A stretch of DNA of 64,000 nt from sequence record NC_048731.1; one strand, written 5' to 3'. The stretch's first letter is position 1; the number at the start of each line of letters is the position of its first letter. The notes beneath the pieces were generated by a model, which ran no database searches, had not been told where the DNA came from, and saw only the letters and a list, made by a program, of their open reading frames with translations. A program made the translations under genes and the position numbers. The stretch comes from Escherichia phage fp01. Below, piece after piece: positions 34,744 through 52,113 of the stretch.

Positions 34744-34772
34744 TTGCATGATGCCCAAAATCTTGATATAAT
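34744..34772 (+). promoter_or_regulatory. T5-type early promoter (plus strand)
   Basis: TTGCAT 34744-34749, TATAAT 34767-34772 with TG extension; downstream ATTTATATTGAATTGAGAG block. Confidence 0.55.
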
Positions 34773-38061: not shown

Positions 38062-38278
38062 AAAATGGGAAACAAGGAAGTTCCCAGTAAAAGAACGTAA
38101 AGTTCCTGTTTACGACACTTCGGAAAAGCTATGTAGGGTGGTACCACATAGATTAGCTGGCATCCCTAACATATCCGAGTGGTTACTTAAACAACGGAAA
38201 ACAAACGTGTCTCTTCGCATCGGCTTTGAGTTAGATAAAGTCTATGCTGAACTTGCTTCTTTGCTCAAGGAATCGTAA
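38036..38278 (+). CDS. hypothetical protein
   Basis: ORF track 80 aa. Confidence 0.35.
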   Translation: MLEMTVKNKKWETRKFPVKERKVPVYDTSEKLCRVVPHRLAGIPNISEWLLKQRKTNVSLRIGFELDKVYAELASLLKES

Positions 38279-38286
38279 AAATTTAT

Positions 38287-38315
38287 TTGCATAGTGCAAA
38301 AAATTTCTGTATAAT
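38287..38315 (+). promoter_or_regulatory. T5-type early promoter (plus strand)
   Basis: TTGCAT 38287-38292, TATAAT 38310-38315; downstream AGATTCATAAATTTGAGAGAGGAG block. Confidence 0.55.
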
Positions 38316-38346
38316 AGATTCATAAATTTGAGAGAGGAGTTTAAAT

Positions 38347-42158: not shown

Positions 42159-42301
42159 TACATAACCCTTTGCTACCCATCCACCATATCGGAATTATAA
42201 AGTGGTTATTGACATTTTCGCCGCTTAGGTATATACTATTATCATTCAGTTGAGGGATAGAAAGTTATGGCGAGGGTAAGCAAAGTTAGTTAAAATTGTA
42301 G

Positions 42302-42330
42302 TTGCTAAATGCTTAAATACTTGCTATAAT
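42302..42330 (+). promoter_or_regulatory. T5-type early promoter (plus strand) in the ligase A/B spacer
   Basis: TTGCTA 42302-42307, TATAAT 42325-42330; downstream ATTTATATAAATTGATAAGGAAG block. Confidence 0.55.
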
Positions 42331-48972: not shown

Positions 48973-49462
48973 TTTCAAATTGCCCGTATATGCTTTACGG
49001 GCGTTTGTATCAATTGAGCAAGAGGGTGATTATTCCGTAATTACAACAAGGTATAATAAATATGTGCTAGATAACAGGAAGTTGCCTGGCACGTTTTCTC
49101 AACGTAGGCTTATTCTATTTGAGAAACGGAAAGAATTACCCTACAAGCTCTACCCTATTAGAGGTAGAATATCAATGTTGTCTCAATTAGTTGGGTCAAA
49201 GCGTAGCCAATTTATAGATTCTGATGGAAATCTTATTAACTGGAAGAAAACTACATTCTATGATGTTGTCACCTCTAAAGTTTTGCATTCAGCTAGAATT
49301 TATAATGGAAAATACCAATGCTATGTAGCTAAAGTTCCATACCCATTTGTATTATCCTATGTTCCAGCTTATATAAGCTATATTCTGGTAAATAATAGCC
49401 CTGTTATTTACCAAGTCCATCAAGAGGAGCCTGAAATTCCTAGACTTAGAATAAAATTATGA
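48965..49462 (+). CDS. hypothetical protein
   Basis: ORF track 165 aa. Confidence 0.45.
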   Translation: MLDFKLPVYALRAFVSIEQEGDYSVITTRYNKYVLDNRKLPGTFSQRRLILFEKRKELPYKLYPIRGRISMLSQLVGSKRSQFIDSDGNLINWKKTTFYDVVTSKVLHSARIYNGKYQCYVAKVPYPFVLSYVPAYISYILVNNSPVIYQVHQEEPEIPRLRIKL

Positions 49463-50811
49463 AAGTTGTTATATCTAATAAAGCCTATTTCAAGCCCGAT
49501 GATGAACTTTGGGATTATTGTAGTAAGCAAACCACTTATCACATAGAGACAATGACTAGTAAATACCCTATTATGTATAAGAATAGTGGTGTTGTTGCCA
49601 AAGAGATTAAGTGGATTCCTATCACTCGTCTAGATTTATTAGATGCTAAAGGAGTAAAATACGAATTAGTCGATAAACGCACATTAGCTCCGGCAGATAT
49701 ACCAAAACCTAAGTTCAAGCTGCGTGAAGAAGATCAGCTTCCAATATACGAAGAATGCGATGATACCTGTATTATTAATGGTAAGCCTGGATTTGGTAAA
49801 ACTATCCTAGCCCTTGCACTTGCGTATAAATTTGGCCAAAAAACTCTGGTAATATGTACGAATACATCCATTCGTGAGATGTGGGCAGCAGAAGTTCGTA
49901 AATGGTTTGGGTTTGAACCGGGTATCATAGGTTCTGGGAAATACAATATTGATCCACCAATTGTAGTCAGTAATATTCAAACAGTGAATAAACATGCGAA
50001 TAATCTTTCTAAAGTATTCGGTACTGTTATAGTTGATGAAGTTCACCATTGTGTGGCTACAACTTTCACTAACTTCCTAGAAATATCATGTGCTCGCTAT
50101 AAGATTGGACTATCCGGTACATTAAAAAGAAAAGATGGTCTACAAGTTATGTTCAAAGATTTCTTTGGATATAAGATTTTTAGCCCACCGGTTAATAATA
50201 CTGTTGCACCTACAATCCATAGGTACTCTGTACCTGTTGAGTTATCAGGAAATCAGAATGTGCCATGGGCATTACGTGCTAATGATGTGTACAATCATCC
50301 TGAGTATCGAGAAACTATTATAAACCTAGCACATTTATATGTGAATATGGGGCATAAAGTACTCATTGTAAGCGATAGAACAGAGTTAATCCAAACAGTA
50401 CTAGAAGCTCTTGCACAGCGTGGTGTTACAACTTATGAAATTATAGGGGCAACCCACTTAGATGACCGATTAAAAATCCAGGAAGATATAGCAAAAGGTG
50501 GACCTTGTGTACTTGCAGCAGCTCAGAGTATCTTCTCTGAAGGTATTTCCCTTAATGAGCTATCTTGTTTAATAATGGGAAGTCTTATTAATAATGAATC
50601 TCTCATTGAACAGCTTGCAGGACGTGTTCAACGTATTGTCGATGGTAAACTCGACCCTATTGTTGTAGATCTAATCATGAAAGGTGGTACTGGGCTAAGA
50701 CAGGCTTCTGGACGTATGGCAGTATATCGTAACAACGGGTGGAAAACTATTACCACGACTCCGGAGAAAGCAGTTCAATTAGCTAAAATTGCATTTGGCA
50801 ACAGCTCATAA
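49459..50811 (+). CDS. SF2 DNA helicase (DExH-box)
   Basis: 450 aa; Walker A GKPGFGKT, DExH VIVDEVHH. Confidence 0.85.
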   Translation: MKVVISNKAYFKPDDELWDYCSKQTTYHIETMTSKYPIMYKNSGVVAKEIKWIPITRLDLLDAKGVKYELVDKRTLAPADIPKPKFKLREEDQLPIYEECDDTCIINGKPGFGKTILALALAYKFGQKTLVICTNTSIREMWAAEVRKWFGFEPGIIGSGKYNIDPPIVVSNIQTVNKHANNLSKVFGTVIVDEVHHCVATTFTNFLEISCARYKIGLSGTLKRKDGLQVMFKDFFGYKIFSPPVNNTVAPTIHRYSVPVELSGNQNVPWALRANDVYNHPEYRETIINLAHLYVNMGHKVLIVSDRTELIQTVLEALAQRGVTTYEIIGATHLDDRLKIQEDIAKGGPCVLAAAQSIFSEGISLNELSCLIMGSLINNESLIEQLAGRVQRIVDGKLDPIVVDLIMKGGTGLRQASGRMAVYRNNGWKTITTTPEKAVQLAKIAFGNSS

Positions 50812-50823
50812 ATGATGTATAAT
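50795..50823 (+). promoter_or_regulatory. T5-type promoter (TTGGCA-17-TATAAT) overlapping the helicase stop
   Basis: TTGGCA 50795-50800, TATAAT 50818-50823; downstream ATATATACATAAATTTGAGAGAG block. Confidence 0.5.
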
Positions 50824-50894
50824 ATATACATAAATTTGAGAGAGAAAGTTTCGGATTGATAAGAAAGTCCGAAGCAGAAAAATAAAAATTTTAG

Positions 50895-50924
50895 TTGCTA
50901 AATTCTCTCGAAATCTAGTATAAT
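50895..50924 (+). promoter_or_regulatory. T5-type promoter (TTGCTA-18-TATAAT), second of a tandem pair
   Basis: TTGCTA 50895-50900, TATAAT 50919-50924; downstream ATATACATAAATTCGAGGAG block. Confidence 0.5.
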
Positions 50925-51031
50925 ATATACATAAATTCGAGGAGAAAACAAAAATTAAATTCTTCGATTATGAAAAGCTATACTTACTAGCTAGAGGAAA
51001 TTCCGACCTAATTATTAAGCTATTCAAAAGA

Positions 51032-51316
51032 ATGCTTACAGAGCCTGATGCTCACCAACTATTGGTCGGTTCCTCATTCATTTTGAATGAATCAACTATT
51101 GTTGATAATCCAAATAAATTGTCTAATAGACAACTGGCAGAATATCTAGGAATTTTAAGTCTACGAAATTATGCCGAATACAAGTTTACAAACGATCCTA
51201 GTTTGGACATGCAATATGTTCCAGTATGGATACCACGTTTAGTAATCGACACTAACCCACTAATCGCAATTAACAAATCGAAATTAATCTTTAAAGAGGA
51301 AATAAAATATGGCTAA
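51032..51316 (+). CDS. hypothetical protein
   Basis: ORF track 94 aa. Confidence 0.4.
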   Translation: MLTEPDAHQLLVGSSFILNESTIVDNPNKLSNRQLAEYLGILSLRNYAEYKFTNDPSLDMQYVPVWIPRLVIDTNPLIAINKSKLIFKEEIKYG

Positions 51317-52082
51317 GTCTTGGGGCGAAACTACTGGCGGTTCTAACGATAAAATCGAATTCCTGAAGTTCAACAACGGTATCACTCGTGTTCGTATCGT
51401 TTCTGGTGTTCTTCCACGTTATGTCTATTGGCTGACTAATAAAGAGGGTAACGTAGCTCCTTTTGAATGTCTCCGTTTTAACCGTGACAAAGAGAGCTTT
51501 GTTCGTGGTAAAGCTGATCCAGTTCATGAGATGGGCTTCTTCGAGAAAGAGCTGGATAAAGATGGTAATCGTGTTCCGCTGAAACCGAAGAAAAACTATA
51601 TCGCTTTTGTTATTGACCGTTCTGATAACAAACTGAAAGTAATGGAAGTCAAGGCTACTATTCTGAAAGGCATCCAGTCTATCATGAAGCAGCTGAGCCT
51701 GGCAACTCCGTTTGATATTGATATTTCTATCGAGAAAAAAGGTAAAGGTTTCGATACTGAGTATGATGTACAGCAGATTGCTGCTATGCAGTTCCAGATT
51801 AAGCTGCAAGATCCTAACAGTGCGGAATCTAAGCAATATGCTGCGGATGTCGATCTGATCGGTGAAGCTATGTGTGATGAAGATGGCGACATCATTAAGT
51901 TCGAAAAAGTTCCTTCTCTGGAACAAACCTATCCGGTTCCTACCTATGAAGAGCAGAAAGAAGCAATTCAAGCCTTCATGGAGGGTCGTGAGAATAAAGA
52001 TGATGATGCCAAATCTGGTAATAGCAATGCAGGCTCCCAGAAAGGTATTGACTCAGAAGCTGCAAGCGATCTGGACGACTAA
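51309..52082 (+). CDS. putative ssDNA-binding protein with acidic C-terminal tail
   Basis: 257 aa; C-terminus ...AASDLDD; optimal codon usage; sits among replication genes. Confidence 0.5.
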   Translation: MAKSWGETTGGSNDKIEFLKFNNGITRVRIVSGVLPRYVYWLTNKEGNVAPFECLRFNRDKESFVRGKADPVHEMGFFEKELDKDGNRVPLKPKKNYIAFVIDRSDNKLKVMEVKATILKGIQSIMKQLSLATPFDIDISIEKKGKGFDTEYDVQQIAAMQFQIKLQDPNSAESKQYAADVDLIGEAMCDEDGDIIKFEKVPSLEQTYPVPTYEEQKEAIQAFMEGRENKDDDAKSGNSNAGSQKGIDSEAASDLDD

Positions 52083-52087
52083 TAAAT

Positions 52088-52113
52088 AGAGGGGCTTCGG
52101 CCCCTTTCTTTTT
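52088..52113 (+). terminator. rho-independent terminator (plus strand)
   Basis: AGGGGCTTCGGCCCCT hairpin followed by TTCTTTTT. Confidence 0.6.

What the first reader, a model, noticed from the sequence alone, without database searches (positions are those of the whole stretch)
50795..50924. Tandem strong promoters at the end of the helicase gene
Two T5-type promoters about 100 bp apart (50795-50823 overlapping the helicase stop, and 50895-50924) both carry the conserved downstream ATAAATT(T/C)GAG block and precede a ~110-nt leader before a small ORF and the SSB-like gene. Stacked promoters suggest very high or differently timed expression of the downstream replication and recombination genes.
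Basis: seen in the sequence. Interest (0 to 1): 0.35.

Follow-up and report, generated by a model that had tools for sequence, protein, structure and literature searches.

The report
Known tandem T5 early promoters P31A/P31B
Two near-consensus host-type promoters sit 101 bp apart just after the phage T5-type helicase gene and almost certainly both feed the small two-gene single-strand-DNA-binding-protein operon; this pair is already annotated in the T5 reference genome, so the finding is real but ordinary, apart from a mis-annotated first gene that seems to start at a rare ATT codon.

Summary
The window is a T5-like phage (Tequintavirus; about 98-99% identical to T5 at this locus). TTGGCA-17-TATAAT (50795-50823) overlaps the D10 helicase stop codon, and TTGCTA-18-TATAAT (50895-50924) lies 101 bp downstream. 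Both carry the T5 early-promoter block TATAATATATACATAAATT(T/C)GAG.

The pair is already annotated in the T5 reference record AY543070 as promoters P31A and P31B. T5 has other annotated pairs, such as P-K28b/P-K28a, also in this window.

- The "~110-nt leader" is almost certainly coding. The small ORF (T5.125) is a 120-aa protein in all Demerecviridae. It starts 23 nt after the predicted P31B start site, at ATG in other genera and at ATT in every T5-lineage sequence examined.
- A good intrinsic terminator follows D11 (the SSB). The promoters therefore chiefly serve T5.125-D11, not the recombination genes further on.

Comparative data show that promoter A, at the helicase 3' end, is ancient. 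The space between A and B is a variable slot: empty in T5, an extra promoter in Klebsiella phages, and unrelated small genes in Providencia and Vibrio phages. No transcription-start data were found. Novelty: already known. Interest: low.

The parts
49459..50811 (+). D10 helicase gene (450 aa). Its last codons carry the -35 element of promoter P31A.
   Evidence: ORF list. Pfam ResIII, Helicase_C and DEAD. Annotated as D10 in T5. D10 is a characterised branch-migration helicase (PMC5180179).
50795..50823 (+). Promoter P31A core: -35 TTGGCA (50795-50800), 17-nt spacer containing the helicase stop TAA (50809-50811), -10 TATAAT (50818-50823).
   Evidence: Annotated 'promoter P31A' in AY543070. In AY587007 it is annotated only as 'repeat c copy 7'.
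50830..50840 (+). Predicted P31A start site (A at 50830) and conserved transcribed block ATAAATTTGAG, followed by an SD-like GAGAGAGAAAG with no usable start codon.
   Evidence: Alignment with five other copies in the window. Motif counts. Position of +1 inferred from the usual 6-nt -10-to-start spacing (inference).
50848..50875 (+). Potential 10-bp RNA hairpin (GUUUCGGAUU / AGUCCGAAGC, 8-nt loop) in the P31A transcript. Function not established.
   Evidence: dG -14 kcal/mol, z = -6.8. Sequence conserved in T5, Epseptimavirus and Klebsiella phages. No compensatory changes, and one Klebsiella copy lacks the 5' arm.
50876..50894 (+). A/T-rich tract (AGAAAAATAAAAATTTTAG) in the UP-element position of P31B.
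   Evidence: the same A-rich tract precedes the -35 element in the other family members.
50895..50924 (+). Promoter P31B core: -35 TTGCTA (50895-50900), 18-nt spacer, -10 TATAAT (50919-50924).
   Evidence: Annotated 'promoter P31B' in AY543070 and 'putative early promoter T5P38' in AY587007.
50931..50944 (+). Predicted P31B start site (A at 50931), transcribed block ATAAATTCGAG, and Shine-Dalgarno GAGGAG (50939-50944).
   Evidence: The SD lies 9 nt before the ATT at 50954.
50954..51316 (+). Full-length T5.125 homologue (120 codons, phrog_4258, unknown function) with an ATT start codon. GenBank records annotate only the 94-codon version from ATG 51032.
   Evidence: Frame open from 50924. ATG at the same position in Epseptimavirus, Sugarlandvirus, Novosibvirus, Priunavirus and Vibrio phages. 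903 of 905 phage records align over at least 80% of the 120 aa. PHROG profile of 120 positions matched 1-120. ATT in all 33 other T5-lineage sequences examined. 5 synonymous to 1 non-synonymous variants in codons 2-26 within the ATT lineage.
51309..52082 (+). D11, SSB-like protein (257 aa). Its start overlaps the T5.125 stop by 8 nt.
   Evidence: phrog_1607 'single strand DNA binding protein', E = 3.8e-106. No Pfam hit and no PDB sequence match.
52088..52107 (+). Intrinsic-terminator-like hairpin (8 pairs, 5 G-C) followed by CTTTTT. Probable end of the P31A/P31B transcription unit.
   Evidence: Annotated 'putative rho-independent transcription terminator' in AY543070.

Best explanation
The two sites are the T5 early promoters P31A and P31B. 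Each is a member of the phage's family of strong sigma-70 'promoter plus short leader plus ribosome-binding-site' cassettes.

Host RNA polymerase is expected to initiate at about 50830 (P31A) and about 50931 (P31B). Nothing resembling a terminator lies between them. Both transcripts, together with read-through from the polymerase-helicase genes, would therefore run into the same two-gene unit and mostly stop at the terminator at 52088-52107. That unit is T5.125 (120 aa, starting at ATT 50954) and D11 (the SSB-like protein).

The effect would be additive, high early transcription of a protein needed in stoichiometric amounts. P31B would give a 23-nt leader. P31A would give a 124-nt leader containing a stable hairpin.

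In evolutionary terms, promoter A is embedded in the helicase 3' end and is ancient. The A-to-B interval is a variable slot that happens to be empty in the T5 lineage.

Shown here: the sequence features, their conservation, the annotation, and the gene structure. Inferred: that both promoters fire in vivo, and their timing.
For: - Near-consensus hexamers and spacing, with an A/T-rich upstream tract.
- Membership of a highly over-represented promoter family: 31 sites against 5.3 in shuffles, and the 23-mer 6 times against 0 expected.
- Both are annotated as promoters P31A and P31B in AY543070. The second is 'early promoter T5P38' in AY587007.
- The window's 38267-38341 is the homologue of the classical promoter annotated P-N25 and carries the same ATAAATTTGAGAGAGGAG block.
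- P31A and P31B are present in all 27 IMG/VR loci and all 7 metagenome contigs examined.
- The P31A transcribed region (50834-50891) has 0-1 fixed differences per 20 nt between Tequintavirus and Epseptimavirus, while neighbouring sequence differs more.
- A promoter overlapping the helicase stop occurs in Sugarlandvirus, Novosibvirus, Priunavirus and Vibrio phages. In the last two it precedes a real ORF at about +21.
- Stacked promoters about 92-105 bp apart recur in Proteus phages, Klebsiella phages and a distant metagenomic contig, which has a 66-nt repeat at 94% identity.
- The scan found no terminator-like site between the two promoters. There is a terminator after D11.
- A comparable annotated pair, P-K28b/P-K28a, lies 93 bp apart before ligB.
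Against: - No 5'-end mapping for this locus was found in the searchable literature. Activity of either promoter in vivo is therefore unverified here.
- AY587007's annotators did not call P31A a promoter.
- P31A's upstream A/T tract is constrained by helicase coding and is weaker than P31B's.
- The P31A cassette has an SD-like run but no ORF, so it could be a leftover rather than a selected second promoter.
Confidence: 0.68

Rival explanations
1. P31A is an orphan cassette. It would be the promoter and RBS of a small gene that once lay between the helicase and T5.125, or that is periodically inserted there. In T5 it would be a by-product with no selected role, so only P31B matters for the SSB operon.
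For: - In Providencia phage PR1 and in Vibrio phages (Ceto, pVp-1 and relatives) the helicase-end promoter is followed by an ORF of 84-147 aa, and a second promoter then precedes the T5.125 homologue.
- In T5 the P31A cassette keeps an SD-like GAGAGAGAAAG but has no start codon in the usual +21 to +27 position.
Against: - The two intervening genes are unrelated to each other (BLASTP E = 1.4; phrog_4330 against phrog_25412). This favours independent insertions into an existing promoter pair over loss in T5.
- P31A and its transcribed 60 nt are among the best-conserved non-coding bases of the locus.
- Empty-slot stacked promoters recur in four further lineages.
- Even an orphan promoter would still transcribe into T5.125-D11.
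Confidence: 0.15
2. P31A makes a distinct regulatory RNA or leader. The conserved hairpin (50848-50875) and the A-rich tract would act as a stabiliser, a processing site, or a protein-binding operator, for example for autoregulation by the SSB. P31A transcripts would then be handled differently from P31B transcripts.
For: - The hairpin is stable (dG -14 kcal/mol, z = -6.8). Two of its pairs are G-U, so it is stronger in the + strand RNA than in its complement.
- The sequence is conserved from T5 to Klebsiella phages, with a different loop.
- The whole P31A leader folds better than shuffles (z about -4).
Against: - There are no compensatory changes. Of 5 single stem variants, 3 break a pair.
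- One Klebsiella phage copy of the module lacks the 5' arm.
- No U run follows the hairpin, so it is not an intrinsic terminator.
- No Rfam family matches.
- Predicted pairings that would mask the SD change with the length of the fragment folded.
Confidence: 0.1
3. The repeated block is not promoter-related. It would be a dispersed repeat ('repeat c') serving recombination or protein binding.
For: AY587007 annotates the first copy only as 'repeat c copy 7'.
Against: - Every copy has a TTGnnn -35 element at 17-18 nt and an A/T-rich upstream tract.
- Except for P31A, every copy has a start codon about 20-35 nt downstream on the same strand as the genes.
- One copy is the homologue of the promoter annotated P-N25.
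Confidence: 0.03

Closest known systems
T5 promoters P31A and P31B (GenBank AY543070, features at 75467-75541 and 75568-75642)
   Same: This is the same element. The 75-nt annotated sequences match the window exactly from 50775 and 50876.
   Different: Nothing differs at the sequence level. The window is a close relative of T5 rather than T5 itself; for example, the spacer of its PN25 homologue differs.
T5 tandem promoters P-K28b / P-K28a upstream of ligB
   Same: Two same-strand sigma-70 promoters 93 bp apart with no gene between them, also present in this window at 42209-42237 and 42302-42330.
   Different: The upstream member (K28b: TTGACA / TATACT) lacks the ATAAATT transcribed block. P31A and P31B share an identical -10-to-+10 block, and P31A overlaps the end of a gene.
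T5 promoter PN25 and its 'downstream sequence region'
   Same: Same architecture: A/T-rich UP tract, TTGC(T/A) -35, TATAAT, and a transcribed ATAAATTTGAGAGAGGAG containing the RBS. From my own knowledge, Bujard's laboratory showed that the transcribed region of PN25 contributes to promoter strength (Kammerer et al. 1986). I did not check this here.
   Different: PN25 is a single promoter followed at +24 by an ATG. P31A has no ORF, and P31B has ATT at +24.
E. coli rrn P1-P2 and other tandem housekeeping promoters
   Same: Two sigma-70 promoters roughly 100 bp apart feeding one highly expressed unit (established knowledge, not tested here).
   Different: rrn P1 and P2 are differently regulated. 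Here, nothing in the sequence points to differential regulation.
AUU-initiated genes infC and pcnB of E. coli
   Same: An ATT codon at the position where homologues have ATG, preceded by a good Shine-Dalgarno sequence.
   Different: There is no evidence of autoregulation or of IF3 involvement here, and initiation at the ATT has not been demonstrated.

Membership tests
Sigma-70 promoter of the T5 early class | -35 hexamer close to TTGACA, 17 +/- 1 nt spacer, -10 TATAAT | tested here: met
   P31A is TTGGCA-17-TATAAT (11/12). P31B is TTGCTA-18-TATAAT (10/12).
Sigma-70 promoter of the T5 early class | A/T-rich UP-like tract upstream of the -35 element | tested here: met
   The 22 nt upstream are 82% A+T for P31B (AGAAAAATAAAAATTTTAG) and 73% for P31A, where the tract is coding sequence.
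Sigma-70 promoter of the T5 early class | Early-class discriminator (consensus ATATT according to PMC7472727) and conserved transcribed block ATAAATT..GAG | tested here: met
   Both have the discriminator ATATAC followed by ATAAATT(T/C)GAG. The consensus is quoted from PMC7472727. The fifth discriminator base is A rather than T.
Sigma-70 promoter of the T5 early class | Transcription initiation by E. coli RNA polymerase at the predicted +1, with early kinetics | not testable with these tools
   No TSS data were found. The classical papers were not held.
Tandem promoters serving one transcription unit | Same strand, close together, with no terminator or gene between them and the same downstream genes | tested here: met
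   101 bp apart. The scan found no terminator-like site between them. The mini-ORFs in the spacer are not conserved in frame with the Klebsiella phage copy (reading of the sequences).
Tandem promoters serving one transcription unit | Each promoter independently active | not testable with these tools
   This needs 5'-end mapping or single -10 knock-outs.
Non-AUG (AUU) translation start | The codon is positionally homologous to the ATG of orthologues, and the N-terminal segment is part of the conserved protein | tested here: met
   ATG in 6/6 Epseptimavirus loci and in all 16 loci of other genera examined. ATT in all 33 other T5-lineage sequences examined. The alignment has invariant M1, D5, L12, G15 and L19. 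The PHROG profile is matched 1-120 of 120.
Non-AUG (AUU) translation start | Shine-Dalgarno sequence at a suitable distance | tested here: met
   GAGGAG at 50939-50944, 9 nt before the ATT. It is stronger than the GAGAG of the ATG-bearing Epseptimavirus copy. The internal ATG at 51032 has no obvious SD.
Non-AUG (AUU) translation start | Purifying selection on the codons between the ATT and the next ATG within the ATT lineage | tested here: inconclusive
   5 synonymous to 1 non-synonymous variants, with no stops or frameshifts, in 22 sequences. The chance of this is 0.002-0.04 depending on the mutation model. The numbers are small.
Non-AUG (AUU) translation start | The protein N-terminus or ribosome initiation is observed at that codon | not testable with these tools
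   This needs N-terminal proteomics, initiation-site ribosome profiling or toeprinting.

The most novel reading that the evidence does not exclude
The first gene of the SSB operon (T5.125) is mis-annotated throughout the Tequintavirus genus. It would encode the full 120-aa family protein from a conserved AUU start codon, placed at +24 of P31B behind a strengthened Shine-Dalgarno sequence. The phage would then pair very strong, stacked transcription, needed for the SSB, with a deliberate translational throttle on the upstream gene. In addition, the helicase-end promoter and promoter B would frame an ancient 'landing slot' that different Demerecviridae fill with unrelated small genes or with extra promoter copies.
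Probability: 0.5. Interest if true: 0.3.

Novelty: already known. Interest (0 to 1): 0.18.

Why it matters
The pair shows how T5 drives early replication genes: by stacking strong host-type promoters in front of the SSB operon. This is already in the reference annotation and fits the classical picture of T5 promoters.

The by-products of the check have modest practical value.
- The T5.125 gene model is probably truncated in every T5-lineage GenBank record inspected here. Anyone expressing or knocking out T5.125 should use the 120-codon ATT-started frame.
- The interval after the helicase gene is a recurrent site for promoter duplication and gene insertion in this phage family.

Tried and rejected
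1. Small RNA or known RNA family in the P31A leader. Rfam gave only sub-threshold chance hits.
2. Anti-Shine-Dalgarno pairing that would make translation depend on which promoter fired. A 124-nt fold pairs UUCUCUCGAA with the P31B SD. A 146-nt fold pairs the same bases with the P31A leader instead, and the Epseptimavirus fold differs again. Rejected as not robust.
3. Hairpin covariation. There are no compensatory changes, 3 of 5 stem variants break a pair, and one Klebsiella copy lacks the 5' arm.
4. Peptide from the spacer (TTG at 50856, 9 codons; or ATT at 50855, 22 codons). The start lies in the hairpin stem, and the frame is not shared with the Klebsiella phage sequence (reading). Rejected.
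5. Hairpin as a terminator. There is no U run, and the scan did not call it.
6. Recent local duplication as the origin of the T5 pair. Only the -12 to +14 block is shared, and the -35 and UP regions differ. A recent duplication is, however, evident in the metagenomic contig L075.
7. Literature search for transcription starts at this locus. Nothing was found. Gentz & Bujard 1985 and Kaliman et al. 1988 are not held. The supplement of PMC7472727 holds only figure legends. The CRISPRi-ART paper's main text does not mention T5.125 or D11.
8. Function of T5.125 and D11. No Pfam hit and no significant PDB sequence match.

Full report
**What the window is.** The 1.1 kb around the finding is 98% identical to many Tequintavirus genomes, and a 400-nt piece is 99% identical to phage T5. 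Gene order is T5's: DNA polymerase, a small ORF, D10 helicase (49459-50811), a small ORF, D11, then D12/D13. D10 is the characterised branch-migration helicase (PMC5180179).

**Check of the observation.**
- The sequence reads TTGGCA-17 nt-TATAAT at 50795-50823, with the helicase stop TAA (50809-50811) inside the spacer.
- It reads TTGCTA-18 nt-TATAAT at 50895-50924.
- Both are followed by ATATAC and then ATAAATT(T/C)GAG.
- The shared block is a 31-nt direct repeat at 87% identity with a 101-nt spacing.
- The 23-mer TATAATATATACATAAATTYGAG has 6 matches in the window at up to 3 mismatches, against 0.00 in shuffles. ATAAATTYGAG has 6 against 0.13.
- Aligning the six copies shows the whole promoter architecture: an A-rich tract, TTGC(T/A), TATAAT and the transcribed block.
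- A looser scan finds 31 TTGnnn-N16-18-TATAAT sites against 5.3 in shuffles.

**It is already annotated.**
- The T5 reference record AY543070 carries 'promoter P31A' (75467-75541) and 'promoter P31B' (75568-75642). Their sequences match the window exactly from 50775 and 50876.
- The other T5 record, AY587007, calls the second one 'putative early promoter T5P38'. It marks the first only as 'repeat c copy 7'.
- AY543070 also annotates other same-strand pairs within the span of this window. P-K28b/P-K28a lie 93 bp apart before ligB, at window 42209-42237 and 42302-42330. An unnamed pair lies before phoH.
- The copy at window 38267-38341 is the homologue of the promoter annotated P-N25.

Tandem strong promoters are thus a documented T5 feature.

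**The 'leader' is coding.**
- The frame of the small ORF is open from 50924.
- In Epseptimavirus the corresponding ORF is annotated as 120 aa, starting at an ATG that aligns with ATT 50954 of the window.
- A tblastn search with the 120-aa sequence finds 905 phage records. Of these, 903 cover at least 80% of it, including Klebsiella, Proteus, Providencia and Vibrio phages aligned from residue 1.
- The PHROG family profile (phrog_4258) is 120 positions long and is matched 1-120.
- Residues M1, D5, L12, G15 and L19 are invariant in a 7-genus alignment.
- The start codon is ATG in 6/6 Epseptimavirus loci and in all 16 loci of other genera examined. It is ATT in the window and in all 33 other T5-lineage sequences examined: 21 IMG/VR loci, 7 metagenome contigs and 5 GenBank records.
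- Two T5-lineage loci have a 1-nt insertion or deletion in the A run just upstream of the ATT, and the frame downstream stays intact.
- Within the ATT lineage, codons 2-26 show 5 synonymous and 1 non-synonymous variants, against 19 and 7 in the rest of the gene. The chance of that under no coding constraint is 0.002-0.04.
- The T5 lineage has GAGGAG 9 nt before the ATT. The ATG-bearing Epseptimavirus copy has the weaker GAGAG.
- In other family members in the window, the start codon usually lies at about +21 to +27 from the predicted start site. ATT 50954 is at +24 of P31B.
- All five T5-lineage GenBank records I inspected annotate the 94-aa version from ATG 51032, or nothing.

My reading is that the gene starts at the ATT. 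Initiation there has not been demonstrated.

**Extent of the transcription unit.**
- D11 (51309-52082) overlaps the T5.125 stop and matches the PHROG 'single strand DNA binding protein' family (E = 3.8e-106). It has no Pfam hit and no PDB sequence match.
- Immediately after it lies a G+C-rich hairpin followed by CTTTTT (52088-52107). AY543070 annotates this as a rho-independent terminator.
- D12 starts 12 nt later.
- The promoters therefore serve chiefly T5.125-D11. The recombination genes would be reached only by read-through.

**Comparative anatomy of the locus.**
- A promoter overlapping the helicase stop is present in every genus examined. Its -35 element usually sits in the conserved C-terminal F-A-K / F-G codons.
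- In Providencia phages it is followed by an 84-89-aa ORF, and in Vibrio phages by a 134-147-aa ORF. A second promoter then precedes the T5.125 homologue.
- Those two ORFs are unrelated to each other (BLASTP E = 1.4; phrog_4330 against phrog_25412).
- In T5, Epseptimavirus and Proteus phages the interval is empty, and the promoters are 96-101 bp apart.
- Klebsiella phages have three promoters, 92 and 100 bp apart, through repetition of a ~100-bp module that includes the A-tract, the -35 element and the spacer of P31B.
- A distant metagenomic contig (41% protein identity) has a 66-nt promoter duplication at 94% identity with a 105-bp spacing.
- Some Epseptimavirus genomes carry an HNH homing endonuclease inserted in the helicase 3' end, just upstream of P31A, which is retained.
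- Between Tequintavirus and Epseptimavirus, the P31A transcribed region (50834-50891) has 0-1 fixed differences per 20 nt. The P31B spacer and transcribed block have 19 in 60 nt.

Together these results favour an old, maintained promoter pair framing a variable slot. They argue against an accident peculiar to T5.

**The spacer.**
- A 10-bp hairpin (50848-50875; dG -14 kcal/mol; z = -6.8) is predicted in the P31A transcript. A shorter version exists in Klebsiella phages.
- It has no U run, no Rfam match and no compensatory changes, and it is incomplete in one Klebsiella copy.
- I leave its function open.
- Predicted pairings involving the P31B Shine-Dalgarno sequence are not stable across fold contexts.

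**Mechanism and confidence.**
- Most likely (0.68), both are active early sigma-70 promoters whose transcripts add up over T5.125-D11. This fits the need for large amounts of SSB.
- Both copies carry the same early-class signature, so nothing suggests different timing. PMC7472727 reports that the discriminator region distinguishes early from late T5 promoters.
- The main rival (0.15) is that P31A is an orphan cassette without a selected role.
- A regulatory-leader role for the P31A transcript (0.10) is not excluded.
- None of these can be settled without 5'-end mapping, which I could not find.

**Verdict.** The feature is real, correctly located and correctly classed. Interest is low. The only fresh points are the probable ATT start of T5.125 and the variable-slot view of the locus.

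Noticed in passing
window 50954-51316: The T5.125 homologue appears to be a 120-codon gene starting at ATT. All T5-lineage GenBank records inspected annotate only the 94-codon part from ATG 51032, or omit the gene. Other genera have ATG at the same position.
   Followed up: yes
L003 1308-1838 (Escherichia phage GreteKellenberger); also SE7, TrudiRoth and saus176N: An HNH homing endonuclease (phrog_99) is inserted in the helicase 3' end just upstream of P31A. The helicase C-terminus is recoded, and the old 3' end, including the -35 TTGGCA, is kept as non-coding DNA after the endonuclease gene.
   Followed up: partly
window 42209-42237 and 42302-42330: A second tandem promoter pair (TTGACA-17-TATACT and TTGCTA-17-TATAAT, 93 bp apart) lies upstream of ligB. 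It is homologous to the T5 promoters annotated P-K28b and P-K28a.
   Followed up: partly
window about 29142 and 29283, minus strand: Two TTGnnn-17-TATAAT sites lie 141 bp apart on the minus strand. They probably correspond to the unnamed promoter pair that AY543070 annotates upstream of phoH. The upstream one lacks the ATAAATT block.
   Followed up: no
window 38267-38341: This is the homologue of the promoter annotated P-N25, upstream of D2. Its -35 to -10 spacer differs from T5's (TTGCATAGTGCAAAAAATTTCTG against TTGCTTTCAGGAAAATTTTTCTG), so the window is a T5 relative rather than T5 itself.
   Followed up: partly
L034 660-710, L066 and L088 (Klebsiella Sugarlandvirus phages): There are three stacked promoters between the helicase and the T5.125 homologue. 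The last has the ATG only 4 nt after its -10 hexamer, which suggests a leaderless or nearly leaderless mRNA from that promoter.
   Followed up: no
L075 826-996 (IMG/VR metagenomic contig): A 66-nt direct repeat at 94% identity, 105 bp apart, duplicates a whole TTGACA-17-TATAAT promoter between the helicase and the T5.125 homologue. This looks like an independent, recent promoter duplication at the same locus.
   Followed up: partly
window 50345-50317, minus strand: An antisense promoter-like site (TTCACA-17-TATAAT, 11/12) lies inside the helicase gene. There is no T5-type transcribed block and no ORF nearby, so it is probably a chance match.
   Followed up: no
window 34767 (+), 39336 (+), 7417 (-), 10423 (-), 12004 (-): Several other family-type promoters have no start codon in the usual +21 to +27 position. 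Some lie in the tRNA region. The one at 34767 is followed about 30 nt later by another A-tract plus TTGCTA, which may be a further stacked pair.
   Followed up: no
L085 (metagenome contig CYGL01000004.1), P31A -35 element: A natural variant, TTGTCA instead of TTGGCA, moves the -35 element closer to consensus. It also changes the helicase codon GGC (Gly) to GTC (Val), which illustrates the dual coding and promoter constraint.
   Followed up: no
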